A DNA stretch of 64,000 nucleotides from the human T2T-CHM13v2.0 reference genome, Homo sapiens. Below the pieces are notes generated by a model, which saw only the letters and a program-made list of their open reading frames with translations, did no database searches and was not told the origin of the DNA. The translations under genes and the position numbers were made by a program. This document shows positions 34,331-35,110 of this stretch, one piece after another (the stretch's first letter is position 1; each line of letters opens with the position of its first letter). Where the stretch lies: assembly GCF_009914755.1 (NCBI RefSeq), contig NC_060932.1, one strand, 5' to 3'.

Positions 34331-35110
34331 TGACCACTGAAATCTCCATCACGCTTCCCTTCCCCAGCCTAGCCCCTCCACATAAGGACTTATTTTATCT
34401 TTGTCCCAAAAGCCAAGTGGAGCTGCTGGGCCTGGACTTGGAGCTCTGGGAAGCATGGCTTTCTAGAGCAGGGGTTCCCAACTAGTGCCAGAGGTGGCCC
34501 AGTTCTCAGCTCCCAGAAGCCTCCTGGCATTTCATGGAGGCGTTACTAGGCCTGGAATCTCAGGTGCCTGCCTGGAAGAGCCAGCATACTGACACTCTGG
34601 GCATCAGACCCCATAGCAAAGGATGGAATGGTTAAGGATGAAGCAGGGGACTCTACAGAGTGAAGGCCGTCAGGGGTTGATCGATGAAGTCATCCTTACC
34701 GAGCATCTAGTTCATGCAAAGAATGTGGTTGGGCCCCAGGCAAAGGAACATCCCATGGCGCAGGTCACCATCTCCTACCCACATAGCCCTCATCAGCTCT
34801 GGTCTGGCCAGGATGTAGGCTGCTTTGAGGGAGCCAATCAACAGGCTAGCCTGGGGGACCTCTGAAAGCAGAGGGTGCTGAACCCATGGGCCTAGTAACG
34901 CCTCCATGAAATGCCAGGAGGCCTCTGGGAGCTGAGGACTGGGCCACCCCTGGCACTAGTTGGGAACCCCTGTTCTAGAAAGCCATGCTTCCCAGAGCTC
35001 CAAGTCCAGGCCCAGCAGCTCCACTTGGCTTTTGAGACAAAGATAAAATAAGTCCTTATGTGAAGGGGCTAGGCTGGGGAAGGGGAGCGTGATGGAGATT
35101 TCAGTGGTCA
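34331..35110. repeat. Long inverted repeat: 222-bp arms (34331-34552 and 34889-35110), 336-bp spacer
   Basis: Manual alignment of the left arm to the reverse complement of the right arm: 215/222 identical, 7 transitions, no gaps; not Alu sequence. Confidence 0.97.

What the first reader, a model, noticed from the sequence alone, without database searches (positions are those of the whole stretch)
34331..35110. 222-bp near-perfect inverted repeat of non-Alu DNA: footprint of an inversion with duplicated breakpoint and a possible flip-flop element
Seen: arms 34331-34552 and 34889-35110 are 215/222 identical (7 transitions, no indels) around a 336-bp spacer. The layout X-L-rc(S)-rc(L)-Y is what results if ancestral X-L-S-Y had L+S inverted while L was retained (staggered break or template switch). 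The restored S/Y junction (...gagattcca|gattgcccc...) has 2-bp CA microhomology with the present junction (ggtca|gattg). Inference: ~3% arm divergence suggests an ape-era event unless the arms are homogenised by gene conversion. The arms could support recurrent inversion of the spacer, cruciform formation or, if transcribed, a >200-bp dsRNA stem (ADAR/Dicer substrate).
Basis: partly seen in the sequence, partly recalled or inferred. Interest (0 to 1): 0.72.

Follow-up and report, generated by a model that had tools for sequence, protein, structure and literature searches.

The report
Small inverted duplication near DOK2
A 222-letter stretch of human chromosome 8 sits 336 letters away from a 97%-identical, reversed copy of itself; it is likely the inert scar of one DNA-copying slip in a primate ancestor, and similar scars lie nearby, so it looks ordinary.

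Summary
Observation confirmed: arms 34331-34552 and 34889-35110, 215/222 identical, 7 transitions, no indels, 336-bp spacer. The arm matches only itself and its partner in the T2T genome; no Alu, MIR-like or L2-like match. It is a local inverted duplication with sharp ends. It is the best of four possible one-step ancestors, helped by a 7-bp second inverted repeat at the junctions, but weakly (P 0.06 alone, 0.21 as best of four). No outgroup genome was available. Flip-flop and cruciform ideas get no support: longest perfect run 61 bp, spacer 336 bp, and no entry in three inversion catalogues searched. A hairpin RNA could fold, but no transcript is annotated and the mismatches show no strand bias. 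The class is common: three more non-Alu local inverted duplicates with arms over 200 bp lie in 344 kb sampled, one nearly a twin (261 bp, 97%, 219-bp spacer) 148 kb upstream. Ordinary; new member of a known kind.

The parts
34331..34552 (+). Left arm L, 222 bp, unique sequence, 55% GC, 2 CpG; likely the original copy (weak inference)
   Evidence: only two matches in the genome
34553..34888 (.). Spacer M, 336 bp, single-copy; possibly inverted relative to the ancestor (untested)
   Evidence: no MIR-like or L2-like profile match
34889..35110 (-). Right arm, reverse complement of L at 215/222; likely the new copy (weak inference)
34554..34560 (+). GGAATCT, first half of a 7-bp second inverted repeat just inside the inner left junction
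   Evidence: 6 of 7 match to the reverse complement of 35110-35116; post hoc P 0.023 alone, 0.09 for four models
35110..35116 (-). AGATTGC on the + strand, second half of the 7-bp inverted repeat, at the outer right junction (shares base 35110 with the right arm)

Best explanation
The element is a local inverted duplication of unique DNA, likely made in one step by a replication template switch that also likely inverted the 336-bp spacer, and it is likely an inert relic today. Inferred steps: the growing strand copied X and L, jumped about 340 nt ahead onto the opposite template, copied backwards through S and L (about 560 nt), then returned to the original template at Y, giving X-L-rc(S)-rc(L)-Y (types 3-1-2-4 or 3-1-4-2 of Loytynoja and Goldman). 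A staggered-break inversion gives the same product and cannot be told apart by sequence. The arms then drifted independently to 7 differences. Shown: the arms, their uniqueness, sharp ends, even spread of mismatches, the 7-bp second repeat. Inferred: mechanism, direction, age, neutrality. I put about 0.75 on a one-step local duplication of any geometry, 0.45 on an inverted spacer, and most of that on the right arm being the copy.
For: Sharp ends and no indels. Arm found twice and spacer once in 3.1 Gb, whereas the same search finds 16 dispersed relatives for a MIR-bearing arm. The product is a described event class: 3-1-2-4 and its mirror make 23% and 3-1-4-2 1% of 794 human-chimp events, and need no prior repeat (PMC5453318, passages). 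Of four one-step ancestors only model A shows a junction overlap (score 5 against 2, 2, 3); it predicts the short second inverted repeat that is seen. Longest perfect run 61 against a null median of 70 for 7 scattered mismatches, so no sign of conversion tracts. Three more such duplicates in 344 kb at 2.7%, about 9% and 13.7% divergence show a steady, ordinary process.
Against: No outgroup sequence could be had, so the ancestor is untested. The junction signal is weak: P 0.057 alone and 0.21 as best of four (5000 random pairs); the 6-of-7 statistic was chosen after seeing the data (P 0.023 and 0.09); type 3-1-4-2 is rare (1%). The copied piece (about 560 nt) is over four times the longest gold-standard ape event (max 128, median 12; PMC7954356), although those methods target short events. 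No ancient repeat crosses any junction to fix the orientation. Seven of seven transitions is mildly unexpected (P 0.03-0.08) and unexplained.
Confidence: 0.45

Rival explanations
1. One arm was copied in reverse and inserted nearby without the spacer ever being inverted (ancestor X-L-M-Y or X-M-R-Y; type 3-2-1-4 and mirror, or 'non-tandem duplication, opposite strand'). Also inert.
For: Gives the same layout. Type 3-2-1-4 and mirror make 31% of human-chimp events. Opposite-strand local duplications were 21 of 166 rearrangements in one long-read survey (PMC5829575, passages). Needs only 222 nt of copying.
Against: Junction overlap scores of 2 and 3 are at background (P 0.88, 0.47); it leaves the 7-bp second repeat to chance.
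Confidence: 0.3
2. The repeat is older than its 3% divergence suggests, is kept similar by arm-to-arm conversion or template switching, and lets the spacer flip repeatedly (flip-flop element).
For: Validated human inversions exist with breakpoint repeats as short as 140 bp and inverted parts from 197 bp (PMC13629690); recombination between nearby repeats can use under 50 bp of identity (PMC2583991); spacer-only inversion (type 1-3-2-4) is the commonest short event, 45%.
Against: Longest perfect run 61 bp, below 134-232 bp (mitotic) and 300-500 bp (meiotic) efficient-processing lengths. No clustering of mismatches. No entry near the locus in the 612-region catalogue that merged 1528 calls from 195 people and kept those with self-BLAST repeats above 90% (hg38 position from a recalled offset), in the supplements of PMC10150506 (format not checked) or in the inversion sheets of PMC12350169. 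Those methods miss many inversions this small.
Confidence: 0.15
3. The repeat is kept because it is transcribed (DOK2 read-through on the minus strand, or enhancer RNA from 37045-37334) into a 222-bp stem that is edited by ADAR or cut by Dicer.
For: An RNA across it would fold into a near-perfect stem (-587 kcal/mol, z -34). 7.8% of intergenic human inverted duplicates were called expressed (PMC5398296, abstract). It lies 13.8 kb past the DOK2 3' end and 1.9 kb from a RefSeq enhancer (hub table).
Against: No annotated transcript (hub table); no Rfam match in the arms; 2 AATAAA and 1 ATTAAA on the minus strand between DOK2 and the repeat; mismatches would give G-U pairs 3 times on the + RNA and 4 times on the - RNA, so no strand preference. 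Strong folding follows from any inverted duplication.
Confidence: 0.05
4. The arms are two independent copies of a dispersed repeat, or the terminal repeats of a DNA transposon.
For: The search tool warns that its counts are lower bounds; no RepeatMasker or Dfam library was available; one weak match (E 0.02-0.03) to L023:6039-6155.
Against: A family with 97%-identical copies would give many hits; there are 2. The L023 stretch is itself single-copy in the search and aligns poorly. No target-site duplication flanks the element.
Confidence: 0.03

Closest known systems
Four-point template-switch events, types 3-1-2-4 / 1-3-4-2 and 3-1-4-2 (Loytynoja and Goldman 2017, PMC5453318; Walker et al. 2021, PMC7954356)
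   Same: Product is an inverted repeat around an inverted spacer, made without prior repeats; type 3-1-4-2 adds a second short inverted repeat, as seen here (6 of 7).
   Different: Copied piece here would be about 560 nt against median 12, max 128; the published events are proven by an ancestral sequence, which is missing here.
Long inverted repeats / intergenic inverted duplicates of the human genome (Lirex, PMC5414712; Chen et al. 2017, PMC5398296)
   Same: Meets the descriptive definition: arm over 30 bp, identity over 85%, spacer under 1-2 kb, intergenic. A 122-bp, 95% pair with an 811-bp spacer is listed in a 200-kb sample of chr4.
   Different: Longer and more identical than most. Arm/spacer ratio 0.66 is far below the ratio of 16 quoted for strong recombinogenicity.
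Polymorphic inversions between inverted repeats (InvFEST HsInv set, PMC13629690)
   Same: Size falls at the low end of the range (repeats from 140 bp, inversions from 197 bp).
   Different: Not in that catalogue; no evidence for two orientations; 61-bp longest perfect run.
Local opposite-strand duplications and inversion-with-duplication patterns (Frith and Khan 2018, PMC5829575; FoSTeS/MMBIR, PMC2583991)
   Same: Same scale and layout; explained there by template switching.
   Different: Those are recent polymorphisms against the reference; this one is present in the reference with 3% decay.

Membership tests
Long inverted repeat (Lirex definition) | Arms over 30 bp, identity over 85%, GC over 20%, within a 2-kb window | tested here: met
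   222 bp, 96.8%, 55% GC, 780 bp in all (definition)
Recombinogenic / cruciform-forming inverted repeat | Short spacer (about 20 bp or less) or high arm/spacer ratio | tested here: not met
   Spacer 336 bp, ratio 0.66; 12 to 20 bp already costs about 40-fold in yeast; a 52-bp spacer abolished frequent stalling in eukaryotic cells. Fold-back in long single-stranded DNA remains possible
Template switch 3-1-2-4 / 3-1-4-2 | Descendant holds an inverted repeat around a spacer | tested here: met
Template switch 3-1-2-4 / 3-1-4-2 | Ancestor has one arm and the spacer in the opposite orientation | not testable with these tools
   No primate genomes held; ape supplements unreadable; no ancient repeat spans a junction
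Template switch 3-1-4-2 | Second short inverted repeat at the far switch points | tested here: inconclusive
   6 of 7 match; P 0.06-0.21, post hoc 0.02-0.09
Recurrent inversion between inverted repeats (NAHR) | Uninterrupted identity at or above the efficient-processing length | tested here: not met
   61 bp against 134-232 and 300-500 bp; exceptions below 50 bp are known for close repeats
Recurrent inversion between inverted repeats (NAHR) | Both spacer orientations seen among haplotypes or species | tested here: inconclusive
   No entry in three catalogues searched by coordinate prefix; raw haplotypes not available
Gene-converted palindrome | Patchy identity, or arms more alike within than between species | tested here: inconclusive
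   No patchiness (P 0.71 for a run of 61 or more); the cross-species test could not be run
Dispersed repeat pair / MITE | Many genomic copies of the arm; target-site duplication | tested here: not met
   2 matches in the genome, control 18; no MIR-like or L2-like match; flanks unlike
Hairpin RNA (ADAR / Dicer substrate) | Transcribed across both arms, edited or diced | not testable with these tools
   No expression data; folding possible; no strand bias in G-U pairs; no Rfam family

The most novel reading that the evidence does not exclude
Inverted duplicates of 200-300 bp with spacers of a few hundred bases form a common middle class between short template switches (up to about 130 nt) and segmental duplications (over 1 kb); this one, and its near twin in GFRA2, are kept similar by arm-to-arm copying and flip their spacers recurrently in apes and humans, below the reach of current inversion catalogues, next to a DOK2-side enhancer.
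Probability: 0.1. Interest if true: 0.5.

Novelty: new member of a known kind. Interest (0 to 1): 0.16.

Why it matters
As it stands it matters little: an intergenic scar of a known mutation type. It is a clean, datable example of a template switch at several hundred bases, longer than those in the published ape surveys. If spacers of such elements flipped recurrently, thousands of small inversions would be missing from catalogues and untagged by SNPs; nothing here shows that.

Tried and rejected
Ancient repeats as orientation markers: a MIR-like profile (96 hits in its last round in 264 kb; 19 at E<0.01 in the window, none from 32742 to 36833) and an L2-like profile (38 hits at E<0.01; none from 33927 to 41773) gave no match on arms, spacer or any of four rearranged models; family names are recalled. 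All-against-all comparison of 264 kb found only the self pair for 33000-35262. CTCF-like motif (recalled pattern): 26 matches in the window against 21.6 expected, none in the element. Coding: longest stop-free stretch 82 codons. Bacterial promoter/terminator scan: 0, and not suited to human DNA. CpG decay as a clock: none of 7 differences is at a CpG. Weak arm match at L023: rejected. The L012 substitution count was out of register and was discarded; one search replaces it. Papers: no paper with inversion + DOK2 + GFRA2 + inverted repeats; two with DOK2 + GFRA2 + 8p21.3 + intergenic, neither about this element as far as seen. Supplements that could not be read and may bear on the ancestor or on polymorphism: PMC10028934, PMC12058530, PMC5398296, one PDF and the cut part of PMC12350169; PMC9563103 not held. 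The 2-bp CA match was rejected as evidence (1 in 16 by chance).

Full report
Observation. The repeat is exactly as described. Arms 34331-34552 and 34889-35110 are 222 nt, 97% complementary and 336 nt apart. There are 7 mismatches, all transitions, none at a CpG, no indels, and the perfect runs are 25, 21, 27, 61, 23, 11, 13 and 34 nt. Identity falls to background at both ends. The place is T2T chr8:22,168,331-22,169,110, intergenic between GFRA2 and DOK2, 13.8 kb past the DOK2 3' end (hub table).

Is it a dispersed repeat? A search of the 3.1-Gb assembly returns the two arms only (2 candidates, 2 scored) and the spacer only once. The tool warns that counts are lower bounds, but the same search with a MIR-bearing arm returned 18 matches, 16 of them dispersed partial ones at 68-94%, so it does see old repeats when they are there. 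Profiles that I built from MIR-like and L2-like copies in 264 kb of local DNA found 19 and 8 copies in the window at E<0.01 and none in the element. Alu-like matches start at 35284. The arms are therefore a local duplication of unique DNA.

How it arose. I scored overlap at the lost junction of each model. Only A stands out (5 against 2, 2 and 3), because GGAATCT at 34554-34560 is the reverse complement, at 6 of 7, of AGATTGC at 35110-35116. That is the 3-1-4-2 signature, and also what an inversion with two staggered breaks would leave. It is weak: P 0.057 alone, 0.21 as best of four, on 5000 random pairs; a statistic chosen afterwards gives 0.023 and 0.09. No old repeat crosses a junction in any model, and no primate genome or readable ape table was available, so the ancestor is not shown. 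The copied piece in model A would be about 560 nt, against median 12 and maximum 128 in the gold-standard ape set (PMC7954356, passages and first part of one section); larger local opposite-strand duplications are routine in long-read surveys (21 of 166 events; PMC5829575, passages).

Age. 7/222 is 3.2%, 95% interval 1.3-6.5%. With recalled divergences (human-chimp about 1.2%, orangutan about 3%, macaque about 6%) this spans the African-ape ancestor to the catarrhine split, centred on the great-ape ancestor. The mismatches are evenly spread (longest run 61, null median 70, P 0.71), which gives no hint of conversion. Seven of seven transitions has P 0.03-0.08 and I leave it unexplained.

Flip-flop, cruciform, dsRNA. 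The longest perfect run (61 bp) is below the 134-232 bp and 300-500 bp lengths for efficient recombination, though close repeats can recombine with under 50 bp (PMC2583991, passages), and validated inversions have repeats as short as 140 bp (PMC13629690, parts 1-2 of 8). That paper's 612 regions merge 1528 calls from five studies of 195 people and keep those with repeats above 90% by self-BLAST; prefix searches of its tables found no entry at this place (plain-number format checked; hg38 position about 21,894,300-21,895,100 from recalled DOK2 and XPO7 offsets). Searches of the supplements of PMC10150506 (format unchecked) and PMC12350169 (inversion sheets present, file cut, one PDF unread) were also empty. 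These methods are poor at 336 bp, so this is weak evidence. A cruciform is unlikely: 12 to 20 bp of spacer costs about 40-fold (PMC10164571, introduction) and 52 bp removed frequent fork stalling in eukaryotic cells (PMC7999016, passages); fold-back in long single-stranded DNA is still possible (abstract). An RNA across the element would fold, but no transcript is annotated, three poly(A)-type hexamers lie between DOK2 and the element on the minus strand, and G-U pairs split 3 to 4 between strands. PMC7006430 on selection against long dsRNA was seen only as a search listing.

How common. In 264 kb (200 kb upstream plus the window; Alu and tandem repeats masked, 50 kb) there are 11 inverted pairs of at least 50 bp and 80%; the 5 with spacers under 1 kb belong to three elements: this one; a near twin at chr8:22,020,826-22,021,564 inside GFRA2 (261 columns, 7 substitutions, 2 gaps, 219-bp spacer, arms carrying a MIR-like copy); and an older one at 22,081,539-22,082,383 (13.7% substitutions, about 407-bp spacer, two matches in the genome). 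The other 6 pairs, 5 kb or more apart, were not followed up. An arbitrary 80 kb of chr1 holds 4 inverted pairs, one of 294 bp at 91% with a 1312-bp spacer whose only full-length match is its partner. Leaving out the target, that is 3 in 344 kb, and 1 in 344 kb at 95% or more. The sample is small and mostly one locus, but it points to thousands genome-wide. Published scans agree on the class: 656 long inverted repeats in 7.1 Mb (PMC5414712, whole text) and 1.9 million intergenic inverted duplicates of all sizes (PMC5398296, parts 1-2 of 6). PMC8755829 (part 1 of 5) covers much shorter microinversions and offers break repair as an alternative to template switching.

Is it in print? I found no paper on this element: 0 papers for inversion + DOK2 + GFRA2 + inverted repeats, and 2 for DOK2 + 8p21.3 + intergenic + GFRA2, of which PMC4737240 (passages) reports a sub-threshold pain association some 35-45 kb towards GFRA2 (recalled conversion) and PMC2576333 was seen only as a listing. 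Databases of inverted repeats probably list it mechanically; I could not check.

Verdict. A real, unique-sequence inverted duplication, likely from one template switch in the primate line and likely inert. New member of a known kind; interest 0.16.

Noticed in passing
L012:6826-7564 (G000:C8:22020826-22021564): Near twin inverted duplicate inside GFRA2: 261 columns at 96.6%, 219-bp spacer; each arm holds a MIR-like copy with 6-7 CpG (3.5 expected); looser similarity extends both outward and into the spacer. Being intronic it would be transcribed, so it is the better dsRNA candidate.
   Followed up: partly
L018:7539-8383 (G000:C8:22081539-22082383): Older inverted duplicate, about 215-bp arms, 13.7% substitutions and 14 gap columns, about 407-bp spacer that holds an LTR-type repeat fragment (family recalled).
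   Followed up: partly
L027:7193-9083 (G000:C1:30037193-30039083): Local inverted duplicate on chr1, 294 bp at 91%, 1312-bp spacer, beside a 124-bp direct duplicate at 89%.
   Followed up: partly
G000:C8 about 22074850-22075720 (window-relative -59149 to -58281): Local direct duplicate, 219 bp at 87%, 437 bp apart.
   Followed up: no
window 33707-33926: L2-like 3' end (family recalled) followed by a CA/TG dinucleotide run at about 33949-33981 that is itself a small palindrome.
   Followed up: partly
window 35262-35867: Two head-to-tail Alu copies on the minus strand, 150 bp right of the element.
   Followed up: no
window 34331-35110: All 7 arm differences are transitions and none is at a CpG; both CpGs are kept in both arms (P 0.03-0.08 for 7 of 7).
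   Followed up: partly
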